Shown: piece after piece, positions 70-57,415 of the stretch
Layout of the letters: each line of letters opens with the position of its first letter
How positions within the stretch are numbered: the first letter of the stretch is position 1
The notes under the pieces: model-generated
What the model saw: only the letters and a program-made list of their open reading frames with translations
Databases searched by the model: none
Told to the model about the DNA's origin: nothing
Source of the DNA: Paraspadella gotoi
Taxonomy: Eukaryota; Animalia; Chaetognatha
Length of the DNA: 64,000 nt
Direction: 5' to 3'
NCBI GenBank assembly: GCA_051294375.1
Contig: CM119264.1
Span: 19,909,590-19,973,589 of the forward strand
Program-made: the position numbers and the translations under genes

Positions 70-288
70 GATCCAATGAATTACTTGGTATGAAATTAAC
101 AAAACAACTTAAAGAGCCAGAAGATAATATGTCAAGTGGAATTCTTCTTAAACCTTGGGAAAATGAAAAAGATACGGAATCAGATGAAAAAGAATTACAA
201 GCAACAAATGAGAATGAAAAAATGAAATTCCCGGAAAAAGAAAATAAAAAACTTCATGTAGCAGAACAAGAAAAATTATCATCAAAAG
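70..288 (+). CDS. Class B repeat exon of a large K/E/P-rich multi-exon gene (GSNELLGMKLTKQLKEPE...EKLSSK)
   Basis: catag|GA acceptor, AAAG|gttaaa donor; 219 nt, phase 1-1, open; similar to later class B exons. Confidence 0.8.
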
Positions 289-399
289 GTTAAATTACTA
301 ATTTAAAATTAAGTTTTGACTTTTACAAAAAATCAAAACATTTCAGAATGTTTTAGATAAAGATTACAGTTGGGAGTACAGGTACAATATTTTAATTCA

Positions 400-442
400 T
401 GACCAATATTTTGATCCATTGGAGTGATCATCTTCAGGGCTA
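400..442 (-). ncRNA. Minimal hammerhead ribozyme motif, family 2 (GAAA mutated to AAAA)
   Basis: Reverse complement reads tagcc-CTGAAGA-t-gatc...gatc-aAAATATT-ggtca; inverted copy of 604-646. Confidence 0.65.
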
Positions 443-603
443 AATAAAAAGGTAAATAGAGCAAAAAAAAGAAGAGAGAGACAGAGTGAGTGACCAAAAT
501 AAGGGATTAATCCCTCCACCCCTCCTTGTTTTTAAAGTCATTGTCCACGTCCTGGGCCACAGTCTCGGCGCCTTATCCACAAAGCCTCTTCAACCTACTC
601 ATT

Positions 604-646
604 TGGCCCTGAAGATGATCTGTCCAATGGATCGAAATTTTGGTCA
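604..646 (+). ncRNA. Minimal type-I hammerhead ribozyme motif, family 2
   Basis: tggcc-CTGAAGA-t-GATC(tgtccaatg)GATC-GAAA-tttt-ggtca: both core boxes, helix II GATC/GATC, helix I tggcc/ggtca. Confidence 0.75.
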
Positions 647-700
647 CGAATGAAAATATTTTACCTGTACTCCCAAGTGTAATCTTAATCTAATTCATTA

Positions 701-1275
701 CTATCTAGGAAAAAAGTATATAACATTTTTAATAACAGATATCTACTCGAAAACTTGTTTGATTTAAAAAAAATCAGAATGTTTTCAAATTTACATTAAA
801 TTTTTTTTCAGTAGCTTCCCTCTTTTTTTTTGTAGGTCAAATCGTTTAGAAGTTAGAGGCAAAAAAATATTGTTACTTCAAATGAAAAGTGTTGAAAAAA
901 ATCATATTTAATTTTCCACCATTTTTGGTATTTAGTTATTTGTTTTTTATTTCGAATAGAGTTAATTATTTTTTTTTAATTTGGTAATGCTGAAGGCCTT
1001 GCACCTTTTCTTGGTTCAAAAATGTACTATTATAGCTCTGAGAAAAGAGGGAAAGATGCGCAACAATAACATCGGGGCTAAAAAAATTGCATTAAAGATG
1101 TAGAAAAATATTTCACTGTCATACCTCAATTTCCTGTATGAGAGCATGCCCAGATGAATGCAGGCAGTAGTCAATGCCGAGGAAGAGCATACCAAATATT
1201 AAGAATGTTTTACCCATGTTTTGTGTACTTTTTATTGAATTAATGAATTATGTTATATACTTTTTTCCTAGATAG
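701..1275. mobile_element. Tc1/mariner-like MITE
   Basis: TIR CTATCTAGGAAAAAAGTATATAAC at both ends, flanked by TA; a truncated second copy starts at about 1701. Confidence 0.8.
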
Positions 1276-2273
1276 TATCTTGGTACATGTGATGACTCTC
1301 AAAGAATTTCATATTTTTACCCTTTTTTTTTCTATCAATTTTTTTCTGAAAAATTATTTATTTTGTGAGAGTATCTTCTTATTGAAAAGAACATATTTCA
1401 ATAGCAATACCCCAATATTCTAAAATTTGAACAATCCTTTTGAATACTTTAAAATTTTTTTTTTTTTTTAAATAAAATAAAATCTCACTTCATCATTCAA
1501 TGTATTTTATTTTAATTTTTTTATGCTAAAAAAGTTCACTGCAATGAAAAAAACTACCTTAATACTGAAAATGTTTTAAAAATTAAGATCTAAAATTAAT
1601 GCAATAACCTAAACTGGTTATAAAGGCGGGTCAAAATTTATACCTTTGTATCATTAAGAATTCTGTAATACACAATTAATTTATCCATTCTATATATATA
1701 CTATCTAGGAAAAAAGTAAATAAAAGACTTATGTATGTATGTTTTATTTGTTTTCTGTACTGAATCAACCTTGTTACATTCGAATAAAAACATTGTTAAA
1801 AATTTATTTATTTAATAAACAATATATAAAACTTGGGTAAGACATTATCAATATTTGGTATGCCCTCCCTGAGCTTTAATATGGATGTTGTGCGTCTTTC
1901 CCTCTTTTCTGATATCTATAATAGCACTTTTTTGAACCAAAAAAATTGCAATGCCTTTAGCTTGCCAATTTAAAATTAAATAACTAACTCTATTTGAAAT
2001 TTAAAAAAATAACTGAATACAAAAAATGATGGAAAACTAAATATAATTTTTTTAATCATCATACCATAATTTTATATTTTTTGATAGCGGCAGGTTTCTG
2101 TGTGCCACCTTGTATCAAGGATAAGACTACCAAGTAGAATTGTATGTTTTGATAAATAAAAAGTTTGATAGGGGTAAATTTATGTTTTGAATGAAATTTA
2201 AATTGTTATTTTAAAATATTTTACTTAGAGAAAACAAAGTGTTTTTAAATTTGTGACAACGATTTATTTTAAT

Positions 2274-2320
2274 AGACGGACACGTTTCGACTCTTTGGGT
2301 TCGATTCTTCATCAGCATTT
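2274..2320 (-). ncRNA. Minimal type-I hammerhead ribozyme, family 1, in PLE 3' end
   Basis: Reverse complement aaatg-CTGATGA-a-gaatc...gagtc-GAAACGTGTC-cgtct, followed by an AATAAA-like tail. Confidence 0.8.
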
Positions 2321-3237
2321 GAAATTCACAAACTTTTCAGTTGTTTTCATTGACTTTCGAGAGAAAGAAAGGAGAGAGAGAGGGAGAGCTTCCAACAAAG
2401 AATTGAGTAAAGGACAGTGGTCAGAGGGAGGGAAGGGAAGGAGAGTAAGTAAATGTGAAATTTGGTGAAAAGAGAGAGAGAGAGAGAGAGAGAGATAAAG
2501 AGAGACAAAAATTATTACATTTAGTAATGTACAACAGTGAAAAAGAAATAAACTAAAAATAAATAACAAAGATTAATAAATAATTGTTTGTGAAAAATTA
2601 GAGATTTGAAATAATGAAAAACTGAAAAATTGAAATTTGAAATGGAAGAATAAGTTATGAGGGATAGATAAGATAAAGGTAAGGGAAAAATAAGGTGAGA
2701 AAGAGCTCAAAATGAGCTGCCTCCCCCCTGGCAGGGCAAATGAAGGGCGTTAACAATGAGCTCGGGTCATTGGCTTGTAATGGGATGAGAGGATATTCTG
2801 GTGGAGTGGGAGAGGTTGGGATCTGGCAAGGATCCTGCTGGAAATATGCCAAGCGCCACTCAAATATCTCTCTGACCTGATAAGCCTGCCGAGAGCCCTC
2901 CTCTCACCTGACGGTGAGGCGGGCGGTTGTCTGTTCTGGCCTGTTTAGAAACAGGAGATACAGACTCCCCTCCCTCCTCCTGCAGCCGTCGCTTTGGGCG
3001 GCGCTCAGTACGAGGAGAGTCGTACCAAGTTGCAGTAGGGTCGGGAGAGGCATTGGACGTCCTTCGCCTGCTAGGAGGCCTCCGCCTGACCCGTTGAGTG
3101 GAGACAGGGGAATCACCGTGCGGTTGAGGTGGCGTTGGGTGCTCCACCACAGTTTTGATTAGCGAATCATAGCTTGGAGGGAGTTCGAATCGTCCTCCAT
3201 CACGGTTCAAAGAAGGCTCGAGCGCTTTGATGTAAAT

Positions 3238-4040
3238 TTTTAACCCACTTAATGAAAGAATTTTTAAAAATAAAAAATTTTTACAAGGAATTCAAATCTG
3301 CAATCAAAATTAAGAAAAGCCTATTTTGAAATTTTTCGATTTTATAAGGGTAATACTATATAAAAATATAGCCTACTGCGAAAATTAAAAAAACATAAAA
3401 TTAATTTTTTTTACAAATTAATGTTCACTAAAGCATATTAAAATTCCTAAATTCAACTTTAATTAAAATTCTAAAAGTGAGGAACGAATATCATTATACT
3501 AATGAACATTTATGTAATAAAAAAATTTAGAATAAATTTTACAATTTACGCAGTAGGCCATATTTATACTAGTACTAAACCAATAAATGTTAAAATTTCA
3601 AAACAGTTTTTTTAATAATTTTTTGGCAGATTTGGATTCGTCATAAAAAGTTGATAAAAAGAAATATAACTCTTTTTGAAAAATTTCTTCATTAAGTGGG
3701 TCAAAAATTAGTAAAAGCTATATTTTAAGCTGAAAATTAACTTTTTATATATTAAATATAGTTTTTTTAATTTTGAACCCACTTAATGAAAGAATTTTTA
3801 AAATGATTTATATTTTCTTTTATCAACTTTTGACGAGGAATTCAAATCTGCAATCAAAATTAAGAAAAGCCTATTTTGAAATTTTTCGATTTTATAAGGG
3901 TAATACTATATAAAAATATAGCCTACTGCGAAAATTAAAAAAACATAAAATTAATTTTTTTTACAAATTAATGTTCACTGATGGTATGTTTTTCATAATT
4001 GACTTTTAGAATTTCCGTATGTAACTTTCACTACGCCTTA
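3238..4040. mobile_element. hAT-like MITE (TAAGGCGTAG family), rearranged, replacing the PLE endonuclease core
   Basis: Ends in ...TTTCACTACGCCTTA and is near-identical to 49073-49683; internal duplication 3240-3430 vs about 3775-3980. Confidence 0.75.
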
Positions 4041-4771
4041 TTGCTCACGTAGAGAGCCGCAGGTCGTCACTGAAGTGGAGATCCCCTGCTTTGTTAGCAC
4101 CCGCACCAATGATTCAGTGATCTCCTGGTGGTAGGGGAGGGACAAGTGACCCAAGTTCTTGAGACGCTTCTGCTTATCTCTCGGTTGTGCTGTGGTGGGC
4201 AAGGTCGGTCCTTCAGCAGCAAGGCCTCGTTCTTCCTCCTGGGGGGCGGAGGTTGAACCTTCGTTAGCAGCTACTTGGACAGCCCCTTGGTGGCCACTGT
4301 CCTCAGCCAGATTCTGCCGGAACCTAGCCTTTTCATAAGCCCACAGAGGGTAACCATTGATCGCCAGGGCTCTTTTGATGTGCTCAAGCTCGGCGGCCTG
4401 AAGCTCGGGGGTCGACGGAATCAGAATCGCCCTTTTGGTAAGGGACCTGACCGTGGCCAGCTTGTGCGACAAGGGAGCATGCGAATCAAAGGGAATATAT
4501 TGGTCAGTGTGGGTCGGTTTGCACTTTGTTTTCTCTAAATATTAAATAACAACGAAAAGAAAAGATTATCTCATGTAATATTTTACTTAACTTAGTTATA
4601 ATTTCTTGTTTAATGATTCTTTTTATTATCTTAAAGTCCATATTGAAGGGTAAAATAGTTTTTAAATTCTTTTCATTGATGAAAAAATGGTTTCAACATT
4701 ATATAGTTTTTTTGTTATCGCGATAACAGCTAAAAAACTTAAAAAAGATAAAAGAATCATAATTTTTACAG

Positions 4772-5016
4772 CATTGCCTTATCGGTATGATGAAAACAAC
4801 TCTGACATTGAGTTTACTTCTGAATTACCAGAATATAATTTACCAGAGAAAAGGAAAGACAAAATTAAATGTATTTGACAAAAAGAACCAAAAGATAATG
4901 TCAAGAAAATAAAACTGTGATTACCGAAGTTCCTGACTGGAATAAGTTGAATAAGACTCATGAAATTACTGAACAGAATTCAAATAAAATTATGTTGGGC
5001 ACAAGGAAAAAATCAG
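4772..5016 (+). CDS. Class A repeat exon with in-frame stop/frameshift (assembly error or pseudoexon)
   Basis: tttacag|CA acceptor, TCAG|gtaaaa donor; ALPYRYDE...LPEYNLPEK and VPDWNKLNK...RKKSG lie in different frames. Confidence 0.6.
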
Positions 5017-5150: not shown

Positions 5151-5368
5151 GTGATGACGAATTTCAGATATGCAATTTTCAAAAAAAATTAATAAGGTAG
5201 ATGAGTTTAGATCTGATTATGATAATCTTAAACCTTGGAATAAAGAAGAGCAATCAGCTGAGAAAAAAGAAAATGATAATATTTCCCTCCAAAAGATGAA
5301 AAAGTTAACTGACGAAAAATGTATTGATTCACGCTTACCAGAAGATATTTCTACTAATCTAATAAAAG
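5151..5368 (+). CDS. Class B repeat exon with 1-bp frameshift near the 5' end
   Basis: ttatag|GT acceptor, AAAG|gtaata donor; 218 nt; LKPW motif shared with exon 70-288. Confidence 0.6.
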
Positions 5369-6432: not shown

Positions 6433-6677
6433 CTTTGCCAAGTGAGGTTAATGATAGTAAATCAACTTCCGAAGTTATATCCTCATTACCAAATTATGAT
6501 CTTCCAGTCAAAGGGGAAAAGACAAAGTTGGAAAAATTCGAAAAAAAAACTAAAGAAGCTCAAAGAAAATCCCAACAACGATTACTCCAGTATCTGAAAG
6601 GGAAAATGTTGAAAAACCAAATGAAAAGACTGAAATCCCTTCCATGAGTGTAAAAACTGGTACACTCAAGGAATCAG
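6433..6677 (+). CDS. Class A repeat exon with 1-bp frameshift
   Basis: tttcag|CT acceptor, TCAG|gtaaag donor; 245 nt (246 expected); ALPSEVNDSKSTSEVISSLPNYDLP...ITPVSERE...KESG. Confidence 0.65.
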
Positions 6678-6714: not shown

Positions 6715-6930
6715 GTATTTTTTTTTCAAATATTGATATAAAATTAACAAAAACACTAAAAGAGCCAGAAGGTAATATGTCGAATGAAGTTCATCTGAAA
6801 CCTTGGGAAAAAAATTCAGCTGAAAACGAATCAAAAATACCGAATGAGAGTGAAGAAATAAAAAAAATTCCGGGAAAAGATAAAAAAAATAAACTCCAAA
6901 AATCGGAACTTGAAAACTTTATCTCCAAAG
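6715..6930 (+). CDS. Class B repeat exon, 5' boundary uncertain
   Basis: KLTKTLKEPEGNMSNEVHLKPWE...ISK G|gttaaa, homologous to exon 70-288. Confidence 0.5.
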
Positions 6931-7204: not shown

Positions 7205-7345
7205 GTTTTGATAAATTACCGGGCATGAAACTAACCCAAAGACAAGTGAAGCTAGATGTTAAAAGTTAAAATTTATGATAATGAAATTGAAAAAGAGGCA
7301 TTTCGAAAAGAATTGATAATCTCAAATGAGAAAGAAAATTTCGAA
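7205..7345 (+). pseudogene. Degenerate, 3'-truncated class B exon
   Basis: gacag|GT TTT GAT AAA TTA CCG GGC ATG..., TAA after about 20 codons, homology stops near 7345. Confidence 0.55.
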
Positions 7346-8900: not shown

Positions 8901-8932
<32 letters not shown>

Positions 8933-9007: not shown

Positions 9008-9969
9008 AATTGCGACGATCCTTATGCTTTTAGGATTTTTTTAACTTGCATCATTTTTCTGCTTGCATCATTTTTACAACTTGCATAATTTTTTTAAATT
9101 GCATCATTTTTTCACATTAATTAATTAATTAATTAATTAATTAATTAATAAAACATTTATTAGTAATCATAAATTAGTAATCATAAATAATAAAGATTAA
9201 AGTAAATGTGACTTATGTTTTTTTACATTTAAACTCATTTCCACTGGCACAATTCCGTCAAAACTTTATATGTAGCTTCTTCACACACTTTTCTACCCGC
9301 TCACAAATTTTCATCTCAATCTATTATGGGTTAAAATAAGTAAAAATATTCAAGTAAATGTGACTCATATTTTTTTTCATTTAAACTCATTTCCACTTGT
9401 ACGTTTCCACCGAAACTTTATATCAAGCGTCGTTACACATTTTTCTACCCACACAAAAAATTTGAACTCAATCTATCCATCCAATTATGAATAATTAGAG
9501 TACTTATTAGTTGAAATAAGTAAAAATATTTAGTAAATGCGACTTATGTTTTTTCTACTTAAACTCATTTCCACTCACACGATTCCGTCGAAACTTTATA
9601 TCCAGCTTTCCTACCCACAATAAATTTTCATTCCAATCCAACCAGCCAATCACGAGTTATTGGAGCTTTTTGCTAAGGTGGGACGGATGGACGGATTGAT
9701 TGACTGATTAATTAATTATTGATTAATTAATTGACTAATTGATTAATTAACTGATTAATTATTTGATTTATTAATACATCCTGCATATACATTTAATATA
9801 AAAGGAAAAAAGAATCATAATCAATTAGTGAAACAGGTTTTTTTGTTTTTTTCCATTTAAACTCATTTCCACTCAAAAGATTCCATCGAAACTTGGTTTC
9901 CGGTTCAATCACACACTTTTCTACTCACATACAAAATCCAGGTCAATCGATAATTAAGTGGTAATAAGC

Positions 9970-10305
9970 TAACTTGGTCAACTTGCATAATTTAATCAAC
10001 TTGCATAATTTGGTCAACTGACATAATTTGGTTAACTGACATAATTTGGTCTACTGACATAATTTGGTCAACTGACATAATTTGATCAATTAAGATAATT
10101 TGGCAACCGGGATAATTTGGTCAACTGGCATAATTTTATCAACTGGCCTAATTTGGTCAACTGGCATAATTTGGTCAACAGGCATAATTTGGTCAACTTG
10201 CAGAACTTGATCAACTTGCAGAATTTGGTCAACTGGCATAATTTGGTCAACTTTAAGAATTTGGTCAACTGGCATATTTTTGTCAATTGGCATAATTTGG
10301 TCAAC
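9970..10305. repeat. 18-bp minisatellite (TGGCATAATTTGGTCAAC)n inside a HINE
   Basis: Direct tandem repeat; same unit at 55995-56275; AT-richer variant at 9045-9115, 18945-19098 and 20333-20520. Confidence 0.9.
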
Positions 10306-13780: not shown

Positions 13781-13969
13781 GCATGAAACTAACAAAAAAA
13801 CTTGAAGAGCGAAAAGATGTGAAATGTGAAATTTCAGACAATGAAATCGAAAAAGAGGGCACTCAAAAAGAATTAAAAATATCAAATGAGCCTGAATATG
13901 TTCCAGACCCACTCTTTAAAAATATACTGGTCAAACATGAAGAAAGCGAAAAAAAATCATCTCCAAAAT
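13781..13969 (+). CDS. Class B exon remainder with a candidate new acceptor
   Basis: ccttactag|GC ATG AAA CTA..., CCA AAA T|gtaaaa; 189 nt, phase 1-1, open. Confidence 0.6.
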
Positions 13970-14049: not shown

Positions 14050-14262
14050 GTTCTGATAAATTACCGGGCATAAAACGAACAAAAAAACTAGAGAAACCAG
14101 AAGTTTTTAAATCTGATGAAATTTCAAAAAATGAAATAAAAAAAGAATTGATAACAAATGGGGTTGAAAATGTTACACGCCCACCTCTAAAAAAAATTTC
14201 AGACAAAGATGAAAAAAATGAAAATCTCCAAGCAGCGGATCAAAAAAATTTATATCCAAAAG
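14050..14262 (+). CDS. Class B repeat exon
   Basis: tgacag|GT ... AAAG|gtaaaa; 213 nt, open. Confidence 0.85.
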
Positions 14263-16145: not shown

Positions 16146-16397
16146 CTTTCCCACATAGCTTAGATGGTACAAAGTCCAAATTTCCTGAATTTGTATCAAC
16201 AATATCAAAATATGATCTTCCAGAAAAAAGAGAAAAGACAATGTTAGAAAAGATAGAGAAAAAACCAAATGAAGAAAAACAAAATAAAATTTTAACAATA
16301 ATTAGTCCAGTACCAGACTGGGAGAGAATTAAAAAACCAAATGAAAAAACTGAAAATGTTCCAATTCATTCAATAACTTTTACACGAAAAAAGCCAG
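16146..16397 (+). CDS. Class A repeat exon
   Basis: tttag|CT ... CCAG|gtaatg; 252 nt, open; AFPHSLDGTKSKFPE...VPDWERIKKPNEK...KKPG. Confidence 0.85.
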
Positions 16398-16700: not shown

Positions 16701-16913
16701 GTTTTGATGATTTATCGGGCATGAAACCAACAAAAAAACTAGAGGGGCCAGAAGTTTCAGATAATAAAATAGAAAAAGAGACATTTCATGAAGAAGTGTT
16801 AATAACAAATGGGGATGAAAAGGTTTCTCGCCCACCATTAAAAAAAATAATTGACAAAGATGAAGAAAATGAAAATATTCAACTAGCGGATCAAAAAAAT
16901 CTATATCAAAAAG
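16701..16913 (+). CDS. Class B repeat exon
   Basis: tgacag|GT ... AAAG|gtaaaa; 213 nt, open. Confidence 0.85.
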
Positions 16914-17125
16914 GTAAAAAGAGCAAGCTTAAAACATACATATTTCTTAATAAAATCATTTTAAATTTTTTTAATAAAAATTTAGGTAATTTTTTTTAAT
17001 TTCGGGGTTATGAATTAAGCAATGCACTGCTAAAATTTTTACAAAAATTAAAAACAAAATTTAGTTGGTTCATTTAATCTCATCGCATACACCATTAATA
17101 TGGAGTAACAATGTAAAACAATTTT

Positions 17126-17786
17126 TAGTCGGATCTGCTTATCAGCAGATCCCGACTCTATAATTCACTTTCTCGGTCCGTCGGTCTGCCCCCTCAATCT
17201 TGTCGGGCATTCATTTATATCATGTCAGAACATAGAATTATAATAAATTATGCAAAAAAAATTTCTGTTCGTCCATCTGTCCCACCTTAGCAAAAAACAC
17301 CAATTACTCGTGTGTGAGTGGGGAGGTGTGTGATTGAGCTGGATATAAAGTTTAGATGGAATCGTGCGAGTGAAAATGAGTTTAACGGGAAAAAACAAAA
17401 AAATCTGTTTCACTATTTGAACACCAATTACTCATAAGTGGATGGGGCGATTAACCTGAAATTTTGTACGTGGGTAGGAAAGTGTGTGATTAAGCTGGAA
17501 ATCAAGTTTCGATGGAATCGTTTGAGTTTAAATGAGTTTAAATGGAAAAAACAAAAAAACCTGTTTCACTAATTGATTATGATTCTTTTTCTTTTTATAT
17601 TAAATGTAAATTCAAGATATATTAATTAATCAAATAATTATCAGTCAATAATTAATTAAAAAATCAATTAATCAATCAAAACAAACATTTTGGAACAAAT
17701 TAATTAATTATCAATTATTAATTAATTAATAATCAATTACCGATAATGATCGTGGGCAGATCCGACATTGTTTGCTCAAACTTGTT
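17126..17786 (+). mobile_element. HINE (DINE-1/Helentron-like), short copy
   Basis: Same 5' hairpin/subTIR and 3' GCAGATCCGACATTGTTTGCTCAAACTTG end, between T runs. Confidence 0.85.
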
Positions 17787-23627: not shown

Positions 23628-23867
23628 CTTTCCCACATAGTTTAGATGGTACCAAGTCCAAATCTCCTAAAATTGTATCAGCAATACCAGGATATGATCT
23701 TCCAGAAAAAATAGAAAAGACAATATTAAAAATCATTGAAAAAAAACCAAATGAAGAAAAACCAAATAAAATTTCTCCAGTTTCAGACAGGGAGAAAATT
23801 AAAAGCCCAAATGAAAAAGCTGAAAATCTTTCCATTGGTTCAAAACCATATGCACCAAGAAAATCAG
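23628..23867 (+). CDS. Class A repeat exon
   Basis: tttcag|CT ... TCAG|gtagaa; 240 nt, open. Confidence 0.85.
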
Positions 23868-23974
23868 GTAGAAAAATATTATACTATCTGAAATAGCAAA
23901 ATATTTTGTAAGATAATGTTATGTTTTATGACTCAAAATCATATTTAAAACTATCTTTTAAAAACCTTTATTTT

Positions 23975-26730: not shown

Positions 26731-26947
26731 GTTTAGATGGTACCAAGTCAAATCTCCTAAATTTGTATCAGCAATACCAGATTATGATCTTCCAGAAAAA
26801 ATTGAGAAAAACCAAATGAAAAAAAACCAAATGAAGAAAAACAAAATAAAAATTTTCCTGTATCAGACAGGGAGAAAATTAAAAGCCCAAATGAAAAAGC
26901 TGAAAATATTTCCATTAGTTCAAAACCATATGCACCAAGAAAATCAG
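26731..26947 (+). CDS. 5'-truncated duplicate of exon 23628-23867 with two 1-bp deletions
   Basis: taaag|GT TTA GAT GGT ACC...; ends SKPYAPRKS G|gtaaaa as in the parent; 217 nt. Confidence 0.55.
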
Positions 26948-30646: not shown

Positions 30647-30874
30647 GTTCTGATGAATTACCGGATTTGAAACCAGAAAAAAAAATAGAGGAGCAAGATG
30701 TTAAATATGACTATATTCCAGATAATAAAATAGAAAAAGAGGCATTTCAAAAAGAATTAGTAATTTCAAATGGAGTTGAAAATGGTTCATCCCCACTTTT
30801 AAAAAAGATATTGGACAAGGATGAAAAAAATAAAAATCTTATAGTAACAGTTCAGAAAAAATTATCTCCAAAAG
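30647..30874 (+). CDS. Class B repeat exon
   Basis: tgacag|GT ... AAAG|gtaaaa; 228 nt, open. Confidence 0.85.
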
Positions 30875-31956: not shown

Positions 31957-32193
31957 CTCTTCCACAGAGCTTAGATGGTATAAAGTCCAAATCTCCGGAA
32001 TATGTATCCACTATACAAGATTATGATTTTCCAGAAATAAAAGAAGAGATAACATTAGAAAAATCAGAGAAAACACCCAAAGAATCAATGATTACTCCTG
32101 TACCAGATTGGGAGGAAATTAAAAACCCAACTAAAAAGGATGAAAAACATGAAAATATTCATGTAACAGATCAGAAAAAAATATCTCCAAAAG
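31957..32193 (+). CDS. Chimeric A/B exon (C1-like)
   Basis: tttag|CT ... AAAG|gtaaaa; 237 nt, open. Confidence 0.85.
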
Positions 32194-32454
32194 GTAAAAG
32201 AGCAAGATTAAAAAGACTAATATTTCTGTCTAAAACATACGTACGTGTTTCTTACCAAAATCATTTTTAAAATGGTTTAATAAAATGGTGTATTTTTACT
32301 TTAATATATTATAAATTTTTTAAAAAAATTATTAACTAAATTTAATTTTTTTTTACTGAACCAAAAGGTCCCAGGTTCTAACTATAATTAAAGAGGTCAG
32401 AAAGGGCTTAACTAACTAAAAGCTTAGAGCTGGAAGTTAAGTTTCAGCATGCAA

Positions 32455-34266: not shown

Positions 34267-34527
34267 CTCATCCACAGAGCTTAGATGGTATAGAGTCTAA
34301 AGCTCCAGAATATGTATCGACAATACCAGAATATTGTTTTCCTGAAATTATAGAAGAGACAACAATAGAAAAATTAGAAGAAACAAAAAGCCAATTAAAA
34401 CAAAATAAAATCTCATCAATGATTAATGAAGAACCAGACTGGGAGGGAATTAAAAACACAAATGAAAAAGCTGAAAAAAGAGTTAAAAATCTTAATGTAA
34501 CAGATCAGAAAAAAATATATCCAAAAG
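34267..34527 (+). CDS. Chimeric A/B exon (C2-like)
   Basis: tttag|CT ... AAAG|gtaaaa; 261 nt, open. Confidence 0.85.
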
Positions 34528-36739: not shown

Positions 36740-37009
36740 CTCTTCCACAGAGCTTAGATGGTATAAAGTCCAAATCTCCGGAATATGTATCCACTGTGCC
36801 AGATTTTGGTTTTCCAGAAATAAGAGAAGGGAGAAAATTAGGAAACTTAAAGGAAACACCAAGTGAAGTAAAAAATAATAAAAACTCATCAATGATTACT
36901 CCAGTACCAGAGTGGGAGGAAATTAAAAACCCATTTGAAAAGGCTGAAAAAAAAGATGAAAAACCTGAAAATATTCATGTAACAGATCAGAAAAAAATAT
37001 CTTCAAAAG
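36740..37009 (+). CDS. Chimeric exon C1
   Basis: AG/GT boundaries, 270 nt, open. Confidence 0.87.
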
Positions 37010-38740: not shown

Positions 38741-39010
38741 CTCATCTATTGAGCTTACATGGTATTAAGTCAAAATCTCCAGAATCTGTATTCATTATAC
38801 CAGATTATGGTTTTCCTGAAATAAGAGAAGAGACAACATTAGAAAAATTAGAAGAAACACCAAGTGAAGTCAAACAAAATCAAAACTCATCAATGATTAC
38901 TCCAGTACCAAAGTGGGAGGAAATTAAAAAAACAAATGAAAAGACTGAAGAAAAAGATGAAAAAAATAAAAAACTTATAGTAGCAGATCAGAAAAAAAAA
39001 TCTCCAAAAG
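38741..39010 (+). CDS. Chimeric exon C2
   Basis: AG/GT boundaries, 270 nt, open. Confidence 0.87.
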
Positions 39011-40577: not shown

Positions 40578-40847
40578 CTCTTCTTCAAAGCTTAGATGGT
40601 ATAACGTCCAAATCTCTGGAATATGTATCCACTATACCAGATTATGGTTTTCCAGAAATAAGAGAAGAGACAACATTAGGAAACTTAAAGAAAACACCAA
40701 GCGAAGTAAAAAATAATGAAAACTCATCAATGATTACTCCAGTACCAGAGTGGGAGGAAATTAAAAACCAAAATGAAAAGGCTGAAAAAAAGGATGAAAA
40801 ACATGAAAATATTCATGTAACAGATCATAAAAAAATATCTTCAGAAG
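40578..40847 (+). CDS. Chimeric exon C1
   Basis: AG/GT boundaries, 270 nt, open. Confidence 0.87.
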
Positions 40848-44482: not shown

Positions 44483-44752
44483 CTCTTCCACAAAGTTTAG
44501 ATTATATTAAGTCTAAATCTCCAGAATTTGTATCCACTATACCAGATTATGGTTTGCCAGAAATAACAGAAGAGACAACATTAGGAAAATTTGAGGAAAC
44601 ACCAAGTGAAGTAAAACAAAATCAAAACTCATCAATTATTACTCCTGTACCAGAGTGGGAGGAAATTAAAAACCCAAATGAAAAGACTGAAGAAAAAGAT
44701 GAAAAAAATAAAAATCTTCTAGTAGCAGATCAAAAAAAAAAATCTCCAAAAG
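44483..44752 (+). CDS. Chimeric exon C2
   Basis: AG/GT boundaries, 270 nt, open. Confidence 0.87.
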
Positions 44753-45516: not shown

Positions 45517-45774
45517 CTCTTCTTCAGAGCTTAGATGGTATAACGTCCAAATCTCTGGAATATGTATCCACTATACCAGATCATGGTTTTCAAGAAATAA
45601 TAAAAGAGACAACAGTAGAAAACTTAAAGGAAACTCCAAGTGAAGTAAAAAATAACACGATTACTCCAGTACCAGAGTGGGAGAAAATAAAAAACACAAA
45701 TGAAAAGGATGAAAGAAAGGATGAAAAACATGAAAATATTCATGTAACAGATCAGAAAAAAATATCTTCAGAAG
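45517..45774 (+). CDS. Chimeric exon C1 (12-nt in-frame deletion)
   Basis: AG/GT boundaries, 258 nt, open. Confidence 0.87.
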
Positions 45775-46218: not shown

Positions 46219-46478
46219 CTCTTCTTAGAGCTTAGATGGTATACACGTCCAAATCTCAGAATATGTATCCCAGCTATAACCAGATCATGGTTTTCCAGAA
46301 ATAAGAGAAGAGACAACATTAGAAAACTTAAAGGAAACACCAAGTGAAGTAAAAAATAACATGATTACTCCAGTACCAGAGTGGGAGGAAATAAAAAACA
46401 CAAATGAAAACGCTGAAAGAAAGGATGAAAAACATGAAAATATTCATGTAACAGATCAGAAAAAAATATCTTCAGAAG
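46219..46478 (+). CDS. Chimeric exon C1 duplicate with clustered indels
   Basis: AG/GT intact; 260 nt; about six 1-bp indels in the first 65 nt relative to 45517. Confidence 0.6.
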
Positions 46479-48491: not shown

Positions 48492-48762
48492 CTCTTCCAC
48501 AGAGCTTAGATGGTATTAAGTCCAAATCTCCAGAATCTGTATCCACTATACCAGATTATGGTTTTCCAGAAATAAGAGAAGAGACAACATTAAGAAAATT
48601 TGAGGAAACACCAAGTGAAGTAAAACAAAATCAAAACTCATCAGTGATTACTCCAGTACCAGAGTGGGAGGAAATTAAAAAACCCAAATAAAAAGACTGA
48701 AGAAAAAGATGAAAAAAATAAAAATCTTCTAGTAGCAGATCAAAAAAAAATATCTCCAAAAG
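48492..48762 (+). CDS. Chimeric exon C2 with one extra A in a homopolymer
   Basis: AG/GT intact; 271 nt; ATTAAAAAACCC vs ATTAAAAACCC in paralogues. Confidence 0.7.
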
Positions 48763-49072
48763 GTAAAAGCGCTTTTTTAAATTAAAATTATTATTTCTCT
48801 CTAAAAAATATGTACATTTTTCTTATTGAAATGATTTTTAAAATGGTTTAATAAATATTTAGATAATTTTATCTGGTATATTATTACATAAATACCATAT
48901 TGGTTTTTTTTAGAATATTAAAAACTTAATTTGATTTTTTTTAAATGAAAGTTTGGTTATTGTAATTTAAAAGAATTGTTTTTAAAGTAAAATTAAACCA
49001 TACTGCTTTAAGAATATGTTGGAAAACACATCATAACTGAAGTAAAAGTGCCCAGGTTCTAACTATAATCAA

Positions 49073-49683
49073 TAAGGCGTAGTAAAATTCCTAAATTTAA
49101 CTTTAATTAAAATTCTAAAAGTGAGGAACAAACAACATTATACTTATGAACATTTATGTAATAAAAAAATTTATAATAAATTTAACAATTTACGCAGTAG
49201 GCCATATTTATACTAGTACTAAACTAATAAATGTTAAAATTTCAAAACAGTTTTTTCTCAGATTTTTTTGCAGATTTGGATTCGTCATAAAAAGTTGATA
49301 AAAAGAAATATAACCTTTTTGAAAAATTCCTTCATTAAGTGGGTCAAAAATTAGAAAAAGCTATATTTTAAGCTGAAAACGAACTTTTTATATATTAAAT
49401 ATAGTTTTTTTAATTTTTAACCCACTTAATGAAAGAATTTTTAAAAATGATTTATATTTTCTTTTATCAACTTTTGACGAGGAATTCAAATCTGCAATCA
49501 AAATTAAGAAAAGCCTATTTTGAAATTTTTTGATTTTATAAGGATAGTACTATATATAAATATAGCCTACTGCGAAAATTAAAAAACATAAAATTAATTT
49601 TTTTTACAAATTAATGTTCACTGATGGTATGTTGTTCATAATTGACTTTTAGAATTTTCGTATGTAACTTTCACTACGCCTTA
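49073..49683. mobile_element. hAT-like MITE, full length
   Basis: TIR TAAGGCGTAGT; 8-bp TSD ATAATCAA; empty site visible in paralogous introns. Confidence 0.9.
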
Positions 49684-50140: not shown

Positions 50141-50410
50141 CTCTTCTTCAGAGCTTAGATGGTATAACGTCCAAATCTCCGGAATATGTATCCACTATAC
50201 CAGATCATGGTTTTCCAGAAATAAGAGAAGAGACAACAATAGGAAACTTAAAGGAAACACCAAGTGAAGTAAAAAATAATAAAAACTCATCAATGATTAC
50301 TCCAGTACCAGAGTGGGAGGAAATAAAAAACACAAATGAAAAGGCTGAAAGAAAGGATGAAAAACATGAAAATATTCATGTAACAGATCAGAAAAAAATA
50401 TCTTCAGAAG
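50141..50410 (+). CDS. Chimeric exon C1
   Basis: AG/GT boundaries, 270 nt, open. Confidence 0.87.
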
Positions 50411-50668
50411 GTAAAAGTGCAAGATTAAAAAACTATTATTTTTCTTTAAAACATATGTATGCATTTCTTTCTGAAATCATTTTTTAAAAAATTGTTTATT
50501 AATATTTAGATCAATTTTTTAAAAATTTGTAGTATTTCTTAAATTTCATATCAATTTTCTTTACAAAATTCTTAACTAAATTTAATTTCTTTTAAATAAA
50601 AACTTTAGTTATTTAGTAAAATTAATCCATACTGCTTGAAAAATTTGTGGGCGAACACACTATACCAG

Positions 50669-50872
50669 ATTATGGTTTTCCAGAAAAAAGAGAAGAGACA
50701 TCATTAGGAAAATTAGAGGAAACACCAAGTGAAGTAAAACAAATTCCAAACTCATCAATAATTACTCCAGTAACAGAGTGGGAGGAAATCAAAAACCCAA
50801 ATGAAAAGATTGAAGAAAAAGATGAAAAAAATAATCTTCTTATAGAAAATAAAAAAAAAATATCTCCAAAAG
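50669..50872 (+). CDS. 5'-deleted exon C2 with a candidate cryptic acceptor
   Basis: Native acceptor deleted; ccag|AT TAT GGT gives 204 nt, phase 1-1, open. Confidence 0.55.
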
Positions 50873-51610: not shown

Positions 51611-51880
51611 CTCTTCTTCAAAGCTTAGATGGTATAACGTCCAAATTGCCGGAATATGTGTCCACTATACCAGATTATGGTTTACCAGAAATAAGAGAAA
51701 AGACAACATTAGAAAACTTTAAGGAAACACCAAGTGAAGTAAAAAATAATAAAAACTCATTAATGATTACTCCAGTACCAGAGTGGGAGGAAATTAAAAA
51801 CCCAAATGTAAAGGCTGAACAAAAGGATGAAAAACAGGAAAATATTCATGTAACAGATCAGAAAAAAATATATCCAAAAG
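51611..51880 (+). CDS. Chimeric exon C1
   Basis: AG/GT boundaries, 270 nt, open. Confidence 0.87.
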
Positions 51881-52408
51881 GTAAAAAAACAAGTTTGAAA
51901 AACATTATTTTTGTTTAAAACATATTTATGTACCTTTTCATATTAAAATCAATTTTAATTTAATCTTTTTTGTTGGAAATAACGTTTTTAATCTATTTAA
52001 AATGCTAATAAAATAGCTTAAATATTAAAAGTTATTTTTTTATTTTGCCTATTTTTTACACTAATTATTAATAAATATTAATAAAATATACAATTTATAA
52101 ATAAACTTACCAAAATATTTTTATGGATTTTTTTTTATATTATGTAAGCTAAATATGACTTTAAAAATTTTAACAATATGAGTTCTCATACTCTTCAATA
52201 TTTACACTATTTTAATAGCACCATATATGCTTCAAAAATCGCCATTTCCGACAAAGAAGATAAAACTATACAAAAAATGGTTATCATTGTTAAATTCTTC
52301 AGATCTTATTAGATTAAAATAATTATGAATAGAATTAGATATCTTATATTTTGTTATCTTTGAACGCTCTACTATATGGTCTTAGAAAAAAATAATTTTA
52401 ATAATTTT

Positions 52409-53985
52409 TAGTCGAATCTGCTCATCAGCAGATTCCGACTCTAAAATTCACTTTGTCTTTCCGTTGGTCCCACCCCTTAATCTTGTCGGTAAATAATTAT
52501 TATCATATCAGAACCTCAAATTATGATAAATTATGCAAAAAAATGATGTCCATCCGTCCGTCTGTAGGTACGTCCGTTCGTCTGTCCGTCCCACCTTCGC
52601 ATTAAATTGGATGTATGTATGGATGTATGGATTGGAATAAAGTTTCTTGTGTATGTGGTAAAGTGTGTGATAAAGTTTTGATGGAATCGTTCAAGTAAAT
52701 TGAGTTAAAATGAAAAAAAAGTCACAATTAATTAAAGTTTTTTTACACTTAATTATTATATTTATGAAAAATTTGATTGATGAATTGAAATTAAATGTTG
52801 TGTGTAAGTACTGGGTAGGAAAGTATGGAATCAAGCTGGATAAAATTTTTTTTATGGAATTAGAGGAATGGAAAAGAGTTTAAGTTAAAAAACCAAAAGA
52901 CATATTTATTTAAATTTTAGTTTCTCTCTCTCTATTTCTCTGATTGATTTATTCATTGATTGATTGATTCTTAATTTGGTTAAATGATTGATTGTTAATT
53001 TTTTTAATTTATTAATTCATAAATCTATTATTATTCATAATGTAATGATCTAGTTATGATTAGTTGTTTCTCTCTACCCCATGTTAGTTCGCGAGTGACA
53101 CCAAAAAAATATTTACTATACTTTAAATATTTATTAAATATAATTCATTATCAAGTTAGTTAGAGAACTACTGGAAGTTTTTTATGTATAAGTTTCATTT
53201 CGTGTTTAATTTATTTACTATTCGTTGTTTAATTTTTTATTTAACGTGTTCTTGATTGAATTTTACAAAAAATTTACTTCATTAAAAATCCCTATTAATG
53301 GTCTAAACAATCCCTAATTTAATGGTGTAAATAAATTTTAATGATTTTAAGAAATTGGTACAACCAATATAAAAATTATCCACTCATTTAATAAATACGC
53401 TATCTTGCCCCTGACTTTGGACAGGCTTTGGTGGTTTAAGGCCTCCATCACTCTTACAAGATAATGACATAGGAGGTCCCTGCAAGCTTTCAATCAAGAC
53501 TCTCACAGTCTCGTTTATTCACTCCCAGAGTATCTGGCTTCCCTATCAATGAAGTGGTATAATGTTTCAAAGAATGTTTTAATTGTATGAAAAGACCACT
53601 CCCTTAAGTATTAGATTTAGTAATTAAGTAAGATTAAGTAATTTTTGAATAATTAATTTATAATATTTTTTTTTAAATTCATTTTTTTACTGAAAATAAA
53701 ATTTGATGACCATTAAAGAAAGGTTGTTTTACATAAGTAAATATCAAATTAATCTTATTAAATTAAAATATAATAAACGTCCAGTATATTGCTATAGAAT
53801 GGAAAAAAAATTTAAAAATATTCATCCAATGTGAAATGGTACGCATTTTTTAGGTGTTACCCGTGAACGGACACGGGGTATTTATTTCAGAATTTTATTG
53901 TCACATTCATAAGACATCCCATCTGATTTGCTACTTACTGCTAAATTATCGTAGGCAGATCTGACATTGTTTGCTCAAACTTGTT
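52409..53985 (+). mobile_element. HINE, diverged copy with nested fragments
   Basis: GTCGAATCTGCTCATCAGCAGATTCCGAC 5' end and GCAGATCTGACATTGTTTGCTCAAACTTG 3' end. Confidence 0.75.
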
Positions 53986-54153: not shown

Positions 54154-54381
54154 CTATACCCGAGAGTATGGACGATAGCAAAAATGCTTCAACATTAATA
54201 ACAAAATTACCTGATTCAGATAAAAACGAAAATTTTGAGAAAATATCAATACAAAATGGACAAAAAGAAATATCATCTACTGTCAATACGACTGTTACTA
54301 GCGAGGCTAAAATAAAAAAACCCAATGAAAATACGGAAACCCCTCCCATTAGTTCAATACCCGATACACTAAAACAATCAG
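54154..54381 (+). CDS. Diverged class A exon
   Basis: ttatag|CT ... TCAG|gtaaag; 228 nt, open; ...KKPNENTETPPISSIPDTLKQSG. Confidence 0.8.
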
Positions 54382-54783: not shown

Positions 54784-54858
54784 AATCTTTTACTCCGGGT
54801 GCTGAAGTTGAAAAACTTCTTATTTTTACGGAACCCTCTCCTGATATTAAAAAATCAG
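54784..54858 (+). CDS. Small symmetric exon
   Basis: acacag|AA ... TCAG|gtcagt; 75 nt, open, phase 1-1. Confidence 0.55.
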
Positions 54859-54922
54859 GTCAGTGTTTATTTCTTCCATTATATATTTTAAAAGTTTTTA
54901 AAAATAATTATTTTTTTAATAG

Positions 54923-54985
54923 TTGTCTTCCCATCTACTTCAGAAAATTTAGTTAATCAGGCAAGAAGAACTTCTCCTTCAAAAA
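54923..54985 (+). CDS. Small symmetric exon
   Basis: ttaatag|TT ... AAAA|gtaagt; 63 nt, open, phase 1-1. Confidence 0.65.
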
Positions 54986-55010
54986 GTAAGTTGCATTAAT
55001 ATATATTTTT

Positions 55011-55948
55011 TAGTCGGATCTGCTTATCAGCAGATTCAGACTCTATAATTTACTTTGTCGGTCCATTGGTCCCACCCCAAAATATTGTCGGTAAATCATT
55101 ATTATCATATCAGAACCTCGAATTATGATAAATTATGCAAAAAAAATGATGTCCGTACGTCCGTCCGTCCCTTAGCAAAAAACTCCAATTACTCATGATT
55201 GGATGGATGGATTGGTATGAAATTTTGTGTGTGGGTAGGAGACTGTGTGATTGAGATGGATATGAAGTTTCGATGGAATCGTGCGAGTGGAAATTGGTTT
55301 AAATGGAAAAAACAAAAAAATCTATTTCACTATTTGAACGCCAATTGCTCATGTGTGGATAGGGCAATTGACCTGAAAGTGTGTGATTGAGCTGGATATA
55401 ACTAACTGTGGGACTCTGGGTCTAACTGGGTCTAACGTCTATCAAAACGGAGGGTGAATAAATGTATTTGGTAACCAAGGTCTATACTCATATCGAAAAT
55501 GTATATAAAAGGTCCAAAAAAAGGGGGAGAGAGAAAGAGTCTGAGATAGAGGAGAAGATGGACTGAACCTAAACTTGAACGCGACCCCGAATCCCCGTGA
55601 GGAGGATGAGGAGGGAGGAGGAAAAGAGAGAGAAGAGGAGCTGTAGACTCGCGTCGTCTACCGGCCTTCGATTCTGGATGGAATCGTGCGAGTGGAAATG
55701 AGTTAAAATGGAAAAAACAAAAGTCATATTTACTTGAAGTATTTTTACTTAAATTTACTCATAATTCTTATGTTTATTAAGAATTGGATAGATAAATTGA
55801 AATGGAATTTTGTGTGTGGGTAGGAAAGTATGTGATAAAGCTGGATATAAATTTTTTTGATGGAATCGTAGGAGTGGAAAAGAGTTCAAACACCAAAAGA
55901 CACATTTATTTGAATTTTTTAAAGTTTTTCTCTCTCTATATCTCTTTC

Positions 55949-55989
<41 letters not shown>

Positions 55990-56324
55990 AATTTATTGAC
56001 CAAATTATGCCAATTGACAAAAATATGCCAGTTGACCAAATTATGCCAGTTGACCAAATTATGCCAGTTGACCAAATTATGCCAGTTGACCAAATTCTGC
56101 AAGTTTACCAAATTATTCCTGTTGACCAAATTATACCAGTTGACCAAATTATGCCTGTTGACCAAATTATGTCAGTTGACCAAATTATGCCAGCTGACAA
56201 AATTATGTCTGTTGACCAAATTATGCCAGTTGACCAAATAATGCAAGTTGATTAAATTATGCAAGTTGATCAATTTAGCTTATTACCACTTAATTATTGT
56301 AGGCAGATCCGACATTGTTTACTT
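55011..56324 (+). mobile_element. HINE with an 18-bp minisatellite and a nested GC-rich fragment (about 55400-55675)
   Basis: Canonical 5' hairpin, 3' GCAGATCCGACATTGTTT. Confidence 0.8.
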
Positions 56325-56930
56325 TTCAGGCCAATCTTTTTTAATTGAACACCCACAATTTTAAAAAAATAATATATTGATCGATTTTTTTAATGAAAAA
56401 ATTGATTTAACCGACTAAAAACGGAAAGCAAAAAATATAGTAACGAAATATGAAATTAGGAAATTAGGAATATAAAACCAGAAAAAGGAAGTATTTTAGG
56501 ATCATGGCCGAAATTTTTTAAACAAAACATGACATAATACTACAATTAAAAACTTATTAATATAAACTAGAAAAATCATAGTGATGATGACGATGATAAT
56601 TTCAATACTCAAAAAAGAAAGATATTTTGTGAACAAATCTTTAAATTAAGGTTTAATGCATATAATTTATTTTAAAAAAGTTTTTTAATTTAAAAATTAT
56701 TTTAGATGTTAAAAAATCTGATGTTTATTTTTTGAAATAAAAAACAATGCATTGTCCTTTTTAATGTACATATTTAAATCCTAATATTTACTCATTTCCT
56801 TTGTATTGTTTAAAAAACCTAAAAAATAACAGTTATAATTAGTTACATCGTTTTTATCTGTTATGATTTTACCATTTTATAACATTTCATTCCCAACAAA
56901 TCACATTAAGCAATTGTTATAATCTTATAG

Positions 56931-57020
56931 GTGAACATGTTGAGAGTTTATCAATAAAACAAGAAGAACCAATTTTTCTACCTCAAGAATGTGATTTTGT
57001 CTCAGCTCCTGATGATGCTA
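56931..57020 (+). CDS. Small symmetric exon (GEHVESLSIKQEEPIFLPQECDFVSAPDDA)
   Basis: ttatag|GT ... A|gtaagt; 90 nt, open. Confidence 0.7.
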
Positions 57021-57193
57021 GTAAGTTAGATTTATTTAATACATTTTACTAATTTTTCTTCATATCTGATTAACTGTTTTACAGTTTTTGTCAGATTAAA
57101 AACCATCTCTCTTTTAATAAATTGTGACCTTATTTATTTATATTTATTTATTAAAGTTTATCTTCAAAATCTTTGCCATTTACTTTATTTCAG

Positions 57194-57277
57194 AATATGG
57201 AGAACAAAGTGGCACTTTGGTTGACTCAACTCAACCTTTTCATGAAAAAGAGAATACAAAATTCTTCAAAAATAATC
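57194..57277 (+). CDS. Small symmetric exon
   Basis: tttcag|AA ... C|gtaagt; 84 nt, open. Confidence 0.7.
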
Positions 57278-57340
57278 GTAAGTTTTAAAAACATAAATTT
57301 TAATATTTATTATCAAAGTAATGGTGTATATCATAAACAG

Positions 57341-57415
57341 AAGTTGAAAAAGTGAATGACTTATCTGAAATGCCACCAATAAGAGGACAAGGACAAGATA
57401 AGGACGATATAAAAG
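57341..57415 (+). CDS. Small symmetric exon (EVEKVNDLSEMPPIRGQGQDKDDIK)
   Basis: aaacag|AA ... AAAG|gttagt; 75 nt, open. Confidence 0.7.

What the first reader, a model, noticed from the sequence alone, without database searches (positions are those of the whole stretch)
70..57415. Array of about 30 symmetric phase 1-1 exons encoding a modular K/E/P-rich protein region
Seen: every intact exon is phase 1 at both ends with a length divisible by 3 (219, 189, 213, 252, 213, 240, 228, 237, 261, 270 x6, 258, 228, 75, 63, 90, 84, 75), and about 25 are paralogous. Known: symmetric exon cassettes permit frame-preserving skipping and duplication, as in titin PEVK or tropoelastin. Inference: a lineage-specific, length-tunable disordered or elastic domain, or a combinatorial isoform-diversification cassette. 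I recognise no named protein family in the repeat.
Basis: partly seen in the sequence, partly recalled or inferred. Interest (0 to 1): 0.8.

Follow-up and report, generated by a model that had tools for sequence, protein, structure and literature searches.

The report
Duplicated spring exons in titin-like gene
About two dozen duplicated, frame-preserving exons, twelve of them copies of one hybrid exon, encode a predicted floppy, charged stretch that is likely the elastic spring of a titin-type muscle protein in a probable arrow worm; this is a fresh example of a known way such springs grow, and whether the exons are mixed and matched is untested.

Summary
The array is real: 26 paralogous exon units plus 5 short unique exons on the + strand. 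21 are clean phase 1-1, 3n exons; 10 paralogues are broken or doubtful. Twelve copies (type C) are one chimeric exon: the 5' part of a B exon joined in frame to the 3' part of an A exon. Stop codons were purged (0 of 600 neutral simulations leave all 12 clean), but amino acids drift (dN/dS about 0.8). Related, likely transcript-derived proteins splice the B exon at the same ends into a serial ~245-residue repeat, and one begins with the tail of an I-set Ig domain whose best matches are titin. Best reading (0.55): a PEVK-like spring of a titin/sallimus-type protein, grown by exon duplication, with likely optional exons. A Dscam-style one-of-many cassette is not supported. No reads were laid, so splicing in this species is untested. 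The relatives' most conserved helix motif is missing here. The scan noted PEVK-type exon arrays in other genomes, but not this repeat. Modest interest.

The parts
70..288 (+). A0-type exon, 219 nt, phase 1-1, intact
4772..5016 (+). B-type copy, 245 nt, frameshifted
5151..5368 (+). A0-type copy, 218 nt, out of frame from this acceptor; open as 201 nt from an AG at 5168
6433..6677 (+). B-type copy, 245 nt, frameshifted in an A run; its 5' part is the window copy nearest the relatives
6715..6930 (+). A0-type copy, open for 216 nt but acceptor not homologous; doubtful
7205..7341 (+). A-type copy, frameshifted and 3'-truncated
13781..13969 (+). A-type copy, 189 nt; 5' end replaced by a dispersed repeat, donor -1 changed; doubtful
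14050..14262 (+). A-type exon, 213 nt, intact
16146..16397 (+). B-type exon, 252 nt, intact; 51% identical to P0001 over 66% of its length
16701..16913 (+). A-type exon, 213 nt, intact; with 16146 a B-A pair of the kind that likely gave rise to C
23628..23867 (+). B-type exon, 240 nt, intact
26731..26947 (+). B-type copy, acceptor lost, frameshifting deletions
30647..30874 (+). A-type exon, 228 nt, intact
31957..32193 (+). C (B/A chimeric) exon, 237 nt, intact
34267..34527 (+). C exon, 261 nt, intact
36740..37009 (+). C exon, 270 nt, intact
38741..39010 (+). C exon, 270 nt, intact
40578..40847 (+). C exon, 270 nt, intact
44483..44752 (+). C exon, 270 nt, intact; first 209 nt B-like, last ~61 nt A-like
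45517..45774 (+). C exon, 258 nt, intact
46219..46478 (+). C copy, 260 nt, several small indels near the 5' end, splice sites unchanged
48492..48762 (+). C copy, 271 nt, one extra base in an A run, splice sites unchanged
50141..50410 (+). C exon, 270 nt, intact
50659..50872 (+). C copy, 5'-truncated at a duplication edge; open as 204 nt from an AG at 50669
51611..51880 (+). C exon, 270 nt, intact
54154..54381 (+). Divergent B-like exon, 228 nt, intact
54784..54858 (+). Short unique exon candidate, 75 nt, phase 1-1
54923..54985 (+). Short unique exon candidate, 63 nt, phase 1-1, after a 64-nt intron
56931..57020 (+). Short unique exon candidate, 90 nt, phase 1-1
57194..57277 (+). Short unique exon candidate, 84 nt, phase 1-1
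57341..57415 (+). Short unique exon candidate, 75 nt, phase 1-1, after a 63-nt intron

Best explanation
The window holds the middle of one large gene whose duplicated phase 1-1 exons encode a predicted disordered, K/E/P-rich stretch, likely the PEVK-like spring of a titin/sallimus-type Ig muscle protein, and many of the exons are likely optional, so that skipping them would shorten the spring. Steps: (1, shown) the repeat module was a B exon followed by an A exon; (2, shown by sequence) an in-frame deletion-type join fused the front of B to the tail of A, giving exon C; (3, shown) C was copied with about 0.5-1.3 kb of flanking intron to 12 copies; (4, shown) the open frame was kept by selection while residues drifted, as expected of a spacer whose length and charge matter more than sequence; (5, inferred) the chain lies behind Ig domains and works as an entropic spring, about 90 residues or roughly 30 nm of contour per C exon; (6, inferred) copies are included in series and individually skippable.
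For: Chimera: C44483 matches B16146 at 77% over 310 nt (upstream flank plus exon nt 1-209) and A14050/A30647 at 71-72% over 321-348 nt (rest of exon plus downstream flank); all 12 C copies stop matching the B profile near the same column. Frame kept: 11 of 12 C copies have no stop in the reference frame, and the one TAG sits at a one-base deletion; neutral simulation leaves 2.7-4.5 of 12 clean on average, and all 12 clean in 0 of 600 runs in each of six settings. Substitutions per site 0.108 in exons against 0.152 and 0.188 in flanks (9 copies, 36 non-independent pairs). dN/dS 0.79 in the best-fitting model, not separable from 1 (lnL -997.1 against -998.0). Relatives: P0001 was the only hit among 1.84 billion (E 4.5e-4); a profile of 17 relative B segments hits 17 of 18 window B/C units at E below 1e-3 (no bias correction). 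Spliced and unspliced forms of the relatives part at both ends of B, where the window's B exons begin and end (P0011/P0001, P0012/P0024/P0027). Nine repeat spacings of 241-247 residues in 7 proteins. The first 30 residues of P0016 hit 12 PDB sequences, all Ig-superfamily, the top three titin, and fold as a two-strand hairpin. P+E+V+K 41% here, 44-46% in four relatives; insect projectin PEVK runs from 42% up (PMC3835035, passages). Frameshifted copies 46219 and 48492 keep the same splice sites as intact sisters, which a chain that must include every copy could not tolerate. One alternative join in relatives: P0012 and P0026 share 348 identical residues and then continue into different units.
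Against: No Ig, FN3 or kinase exon lies in the window, and the Ig link rests on about 20 residues of one relative, picked after seeing it; its titin E-value (1.4e-5) is a sum over six domains, single-domain values are 4.7 or worse, and Robo, Dscam, contactin and PTPRF also hit. Whole P0016 has no PDB hit. PEVK content is below the 0.54 cut-off used for mammalian PEVK exons (PMC6469411, passages). The relatives' best-conserved segment (a lysine-rich motif plus a predicted 9-residue helix before each B) is not found in the window (best E 0.15), and B core motifs are eroded in intact copies (0 of 12, 1 of 12, 8 of 12 against 17 of 17). Homology of the A exons to the relatives is weak (best E 0.032; 5 of 30 and 4 of 30 shuffles score as well). 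A poorer-fitting model gives dN/dS 0.55 and rejects 1. The alternative join may be an assembly chimera, since P0011 switches paralogue inside a B segment. Some frameshifts lie in homopolymer runs and could be assembly errors.
Confidence: 0.55

Rival explanations
1. Same exon history, but the host protein is another Ig protein (obscurin/UNC-89- or twitchin-type, or a surface receptor) and the repeat is a passive spacer or stalk, not a tuned spring.
For: 7 of the 12 PDB hits of the Ig fragment are Robo, Dscam, contactin or PTPRF; PEVK share is only 41%; no flanking domain is visible in the window.
Against: Top three hits are titin; 36-44% charged residues, near-zero net charge and 2 Cys in 1431 residues fit a cytoplasmic spring better than a glycosylated stalk (inference).
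Confidence: 0.17
2. The array was coding but is now largely a graveyard: most copies are rarely or never included, and the working protein skips the block.
For: 10 of 26 copies broken or doubtful; dN/dS near 1 with equal mismatch at the three codon positions (0.130, 0.138, 0.138); conserved motifs of the relatives lost.
Against: No substitution-made stop in 12 C copies against a neutral expectation of about 3-4.5 clean copies; five length changes among C copies are multiples of three; donors identical in 12 of 12.
Confidence: 0.13
3. A Dscam-type cassette: one of the twelve near-equal C exons is chosen per transcript, giving variant binding surfaces.
For: Tandem paralogues of almost equal length; frameshifted copies tolerated; earlier notes report several variable-exon arrays in this genome (e1-10588509, e1-10418682; unchecked); one alternative join in relatives.
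Against: Relatives carry three units in one chain (P0021, P0026); no 12-mer complementary site shared by 8 or more of 11 C flanks, no better than shuffles; introns are long, so no steric exclusion; the product is predicted coil; no excess of amino-acid change.
Confidence: 0.1
4. Not a gene: a dispersed or tandem repeat that mimics exons.
For: No read evidence was obtained for this locus; no Pfam hit at cut-off for 17 exons scanned.
Against: Spliced homologues with matching ends; stop-codon purge; 0.6% background; all copies on one strand.
Confidence: 0.03

Closest known systems
Vertebrate titin PEVK-C region (PMC6469411, passages read)
   Same: Many tandem repetitive exons, segmental duplications within the region, lineage-variable exon number, P/E/V/K enrichment, position among Ig domains (here seen only in a relative).
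   Different: Exons here are 213-270 nt against a mean of about 76 nt; PEVK share 41% against about 70-84%; no sequence similarity was found; the main amplified unit is a chimera of two older exons.
Drosophila Sallimus (D-titin) PEVK exons 31-32 (10.1101/2024.09.30.615857, passages read)
   Same: Protostome I-band titin whose spring is lengthened or shortened by including or skipping PEVK exons, which sets I-band length.
   Different: The fly packs about 1,700 residues into one giant exon; here about 1,450 residues are split over 21 symmetric exons. Orthology was not tested.
Insect projectin PEVK (PMC3835035, passages read)
   Same: Divergent sequence, 42-100% PEVK, several alternatively spliced exons between Ig tracts.
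   Different: Projectin PEVK is at most 624 residues and mostly has no repeating pattern; this one is longer and strongly repeated.
Tandem exon duplication with mutually exclusive choice, Dscam type (search listing and abstracts only; mechanism recalled)
   Same: Tandem paralogous exons of similar length.
   Different: Variable exons there encode parts of folded domains and are used one at a time; here the product is predicted coil and relatives include units in series.

Membership tests
Titin-family elastic (PEVK) region, Sallimus/I-connectin type | I-set Ig domains in the same chain | tested here: inconclusive
   None in the window. Relative P0016 starts with an Ig F-G hairpin about 70 residues before its first repeat; 12 of 12 PDB hits are Ig proteins, 5 titin.
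Titin-family elastic (PEVK) region, Sallimus/I-connectin type | Enrichment in P, E, V, K | tested here: inconclusive
   41.4% over 1431 residues: at the lower edge of insect projectin (42%, PMC3835035), below the mammalian 0.54 cut-off, which also counts alanine (PMC6469411).
Titin-family elastic (PEVK) region, Sallimus/I-connectin type | Intrinsic disorder | tested here: met
   Predicted only: exon 16146 coil, pTM 0.12; P0016 381 of 501 residues under pLDDT 50, from a single sequence, which lowers confidence by itself.
Titin-family elastic (PEVK) region, Sallimus/I-connectin type | Repeated modules in tandem, included in series | tested here: met
   26 units in the window; serial 241-247-residue repeats in relatives. 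Serial inclusion is shown for relatives only.
Titin-family elastic (PEVK) region, Sallimus/I-connectin type | Length variation by alternative splicing | tested here: inconclusive
   One alternative join in relatives; frameshifted copies with intact splice sites; no reads for this locus.
Titin-family elastic (PEVK) region, Sallimus/I-connectin type | Muscle expression and I-band location | not testable with these tools
   Chaetognath muscle cells express titin-annotated genes (PMC12460157; 10.1101/2025.01.31.635879; passages), but no link to this locus was made.
Twitchin/projectin or obscurin/UNC-89 | FN3-Ig super-repeats, kinase, or RhoGEF domains in the same gene | not testable with these tools
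   Would lie outside the window; no genome is held.
Dscam-type mutually exclusive exon array | Tandem paralogous exons of similar length and equal phase | tested here: met
   C exons 237-270 nt, all phase 1-1.
Dscam-type mutually exclusive exon array | One exon of the array per transcript | tested here: not met
   In relatives three B units stand in one chain (P0021, P0026). Not tested for this species.
Dscam-type mutually exclusive exon array | Shared docking site pairing with selector sequences | tested here: not met
   12-mer, one-mismatch scan of 60-nt flanks and exons of 11 C copies against the window: best 5, 7 and 8 copies per site, within 20 shuffles. A site outside the window or a G-U-rich pairing would be missed.

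The most novel reading that the evidence does not exclude
This lineage rebuilt its titin spring: it dropped the helix-bearing anchor segment that relatives keep in every 245-residue repeat, replaced the multi-exon repeat by one self-contained chimeric exon, and amplified that exon into a 12-step ratchet whose combinatorial inclusion tunes spring length in 90-residue steps between muscle types.
Probability: 0.15. Interest if true: 0.6.

Novelty: new variant of a known kind. Interest (0 to 1): 0.36.

Why it matters
Exon-by-exon growth of titin-type springs is known from vertebrates and, as a few giant exons, from flies. This would be a case from a third, poorly sampled lineage, with an unnamed repeat and an unusually legible history: a chimeric founder exon, its amplification with flanks, selection on frame but hardly on sequence, and loss of the one motif that relatives conserve. 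It gives a direct test of whether such springs care only about length and composition, and a candidate gene for comparing arrow-worm muscle types. It does not open a new mechanism unless long reads show regulated combinatorial use.

Tried and rejected
No genome is held, so flanking domains could not be read. The run search listed one holder (X1, kind guessed, share 0.30) and no holder on record as RNA; no reads were laid on the window, so this is no evidence either way. Pfam: nothing at cut-off for 21 window pieces or 18 scans of relatives. First search for longer relatives with window exons alone: none among 7989 candidates. Two metagenome DNA scans: 174 and 427 pattern matches, none confirmed. 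ESM Atlas: no usable hit for a C exon; only scores of 0.76-0.77 to carboxypeptidase clusters for P0001, rejected as noise. Rfam: 0 matches. Profile-profile comparison of A exons, four short or divergent exons and 54154 with the relatives: none clearly above 30 shuffles. Search for the relatives' helix motif in six frames: none. Docking-site scan: nothing above shuffles. Alternative-last-exon reading rejected: donors are identical in all 12 C copies while the sequence behind them carries frame-changing indels. Weak donors as a sign of optional exons (no +5 G in 16 of 16 large exons, +5 G in 5 of 5 short ones) was set aside, as the large exons are paralogues and have a strong AG before the GT. 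Literature: 'chaetognath + titin' (7 papers, 6 listed), 'chaetognath + sarcomere + muscle' (8, 6 listed) and 'chaetognath/secondary muscle/sarcomeres' (74, 12 listed) showed no description of this repeat in listings; the library lacks most subscription journals, and no supplements were read.
Full report
Setting. The window is 28% G+C eukaryotic DNA with microsatellites and dispersed repeats. No whole genome is held. Two earlier notes on the same genome call it an arrow worm (e1-10588733, e1-10588163); I did not test this, so the taxon is a lead only.

Observation. Translated searches and DNA profiles find 26 paralogous units between 70 and 54381, all on the + strand: 18 of B/C type and 8 of A type. 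Five short unique exon candidates follow (54784-57415). Sixteen large and five short exons have AG/GT ends, 3n lengths and an open phase 1-1 frame, 4356 nt in all, and no forward join among them makes a stop. Only 19 of 3069 comparable non-exon segments are open in that phase. The short exons are plausible (two minimal introns of 63-64 nt), but the scan that scored them was trained on them, and two fall in the range of the minus-strand control (16.3 against 22.2, 18.0, 17.6).

History of the array. The 5' half alternates B and A exons (4772/5151, 6433/6715, 16146/16701). The twelve C copies are a hybrid: C44483 with its upstream flank matches B16146 up to exon base 209 (77% over 310 nt), and from base 210 on, with its downstream flank, matches A exons (71-72% over 321-348 nt). 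All 12 leave the B profile near the same column, and 6 of 12 hit the end of the A profile. The simplest reading is an in-frame deletion of about 500 nt in a B-A pair like 16146/16701, then tandem copying with 0.5-1.3 kb of flank. In a protein tree of 13 window and 12 relative segments the window copies form one side of a branch (100/98); five damaged B/C copies were left out, the alignment is short, and AT-driven composition could add to the grouping.

Selection. Among 12 C copies, 11 have no stop in the reference frame; the one TAG lies at a one-base deletion and depends on gap placement. Forward neutral simulation on the same tree leaves 2.7-4.5 copies clean on average; all 12 were clean in 0 of 600 runs in each of six settings, and 11 or more in at most 2 of 600. 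Five length changes are multiples of three; two copies carry frame-breaking ones. Exons differ less than their flanks (0.108 against 0.152 and 0.188 per site; 9 of 12 copies, pairs not independent). Amino acids are hardly held: pooled dN/dS 0.85-1.04 for nine intact C exons, equal mismatch at all codon positions, 0.79 by the best-fitting codon model, which does not reject 1; a worse-fitting model gives 0.55 and does. Frame matters, sequence barely: the pattern expected of a disordered spacer (inference).

Relatives. A profile of 12 window exons found one protein among 1.84 billion (P0001, E 4.5e-4), 51% identical to exon 16146 over 66% of it. Adding it to the query gave P0009 and P0010 and nine longer proteins; those E-values are inflated by having relatives in the query. 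None has a name. Most long ones come from the source labelled merc, which I recall to be assembled from marine eukaryote transcripts. Their structure supports this: P0011 shares the B segment with P0001 but differs on both sides, and P0024 and P0027 run off into unrelated sequence exactly where P0012 goes on into or out of B. These break points fall where the window's B exons start and end, and the residues read across them fit phase 1 (inference from protein; the DNA was not seen). The relatives have a serial repeat of 241-247 residues (9 spacings, 7 proteins; three units in P0021 and in P0026). The end of P0016 overlaps the start of P0021 by 38 identical residues, which suggests at least five units in a row. 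A profile of 17 relative B segments (near-duplicates among them) hits 17 of 18 window B/C units.

Host protein. P0016 begins, about 70 residues ahead of its first repeat, with a C-x-A-x-N-x-x-G stretch. Its first 30 residues hit 12 PDB sequences, all Ig-superfamily, titin first, and are predicted as a two-strand hairpin; the rest is low-confidence coil with short helices, two of them on the conserved motif before each B. This is a short, post hoc match that identifies an I-set Ig but does not choose between titin, twitchin, obscurin and receptors; whole P0016 hits nothing. Composition is 41% P+E+V+K, 36% charged, net charge near zero. Exon 16146 is predicted as coil.

What differs here. The relatives' best-conserved segment, a lysine-rich motif and the helix, has no match in the window, and B core motifs are worn down in the intact copies (the fourth motif there was used to cut the segments and is circular). 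The frameshifted copies 4772 and 6433 keep the ancestral motif best. A-exon homology to the relatives is suggestive at most.

How it likely works. Serial inclusion is shown for relatives. For this species it is inferred. Frameshifted copies 46219 and 48492 have the same splice sites as intact sisters; if real, C exons cannot all be obligatory, so some skipping is likely. One alternative join is seen in relatives (P0012 against P0026 and P0023), but chimeric assembly is also visible in that set. With 0.35 nm per residue (value quoted in 10.1101/2024.09.30.615857), the 21 exons give about 0.5 micrometre of contour and one C exon about 30 nm. A one-of-many cassette finds no support: no docking site, no folded variable domain, serial use in relatives.

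Comparison with what is known. Passages read: PMC6469411 (mammalian PEVK), PMC3835035 (projectin PEVK), 10.1101/2024.09.30.615857 (fly Sallimus PEVK exons set I-band length), PMC13322953 and PMC12198301 (reviews of titin-like proteins), PMC12460157 and 10.1101/2025.01.31.635879 (chaetognath muscle cells express titin-annotated genes). No supplements were read; gene tables there could name this locus. It works like a PEVK exon array; membership of the titin family is likely but not shown. The scan has noted PEVK-type exon arrays in other genomes but nothing like this sequence.

Verdict. Observation confirmed with corrections; elastic-spacer reading favoured (0.55); combinatorial cassette unproven. 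New variant of a known kind, interest 0.36.

Noticed in passing
window 4038-4541 (-): 167-codon open frame that resembles the C-terminal part of a Penelope-type reverse transcriptase (recalled resemblance; no Pfam hit), split from a GC-rich piece at 2860-3291 by an inserted palindromic repeat.
   Followed up: partly
window 3425-4040, 31236-31849, 37061-37634, 49069-49683, 60815-61365: A family of roughly 600-nt elements that match themselves in reverse orientation (MITE-like); the copies at 3425 and 49069 are 95% identical.
   Followed up: no
window 9950-10604 and 55677-56297: Two inverted copies (85%) of an element holding an 18-nt tandem repeat of 16-19 units, which gives long open frames on both strands.
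   Followed up: no
window 10559-11052, 17121-17676, 23970-24552, 27586-28207, 52401-52914, 55003-55391: Dispersed repeat family with (GTCC)n and (ATTA)n runs, in both orientations.
   Followed up: no
window 32400-34200: GC-richer insertion between the first two C exons with several open frames (32412-32795 +, 32781-33320 -, 33351-33860 -), none with a Pfam hit at cut-off where scanned; it replaces the upstream flank of C34267.
   Followed up: partly
window 22718-22775: Short tandem run of a 13-nt unit built from CCCTAA-like words, telomere-like.
   Followed up: no
window 18917-18952 and 23415-23465: Two further small phase 1-1 exon candidates (36 and 51 nt) with scores in the noise range.
   Followed up: no
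window 57416-64000: No further exon scored above threshold, so the next exon of the gene lies beyond the window or has a different composition.
   Followed up: partly
window 5168, 26867, 46284, 50669: Damaged copies contain internal AG sites that would restore an open phase 1-1 exon (201, 81, 195, 204 nt), so some may be rescued as shorter exons.
   Followed up: partly
P0018 and P0019: Two relatives identical in long stretches differ by an in-frame loss of 37 residues between two similar short motifs; allele, splice variant or assembly artefact.
   Followed up: no
P0011-P0026, 30 residues before each B segment: A conserved lysine-rich motif plus predicted 9-residue helix in every relative repeat, with no Pfam match; a candidate binding site, possibly for actin (guess), absent from the window.
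   Followed up: partly
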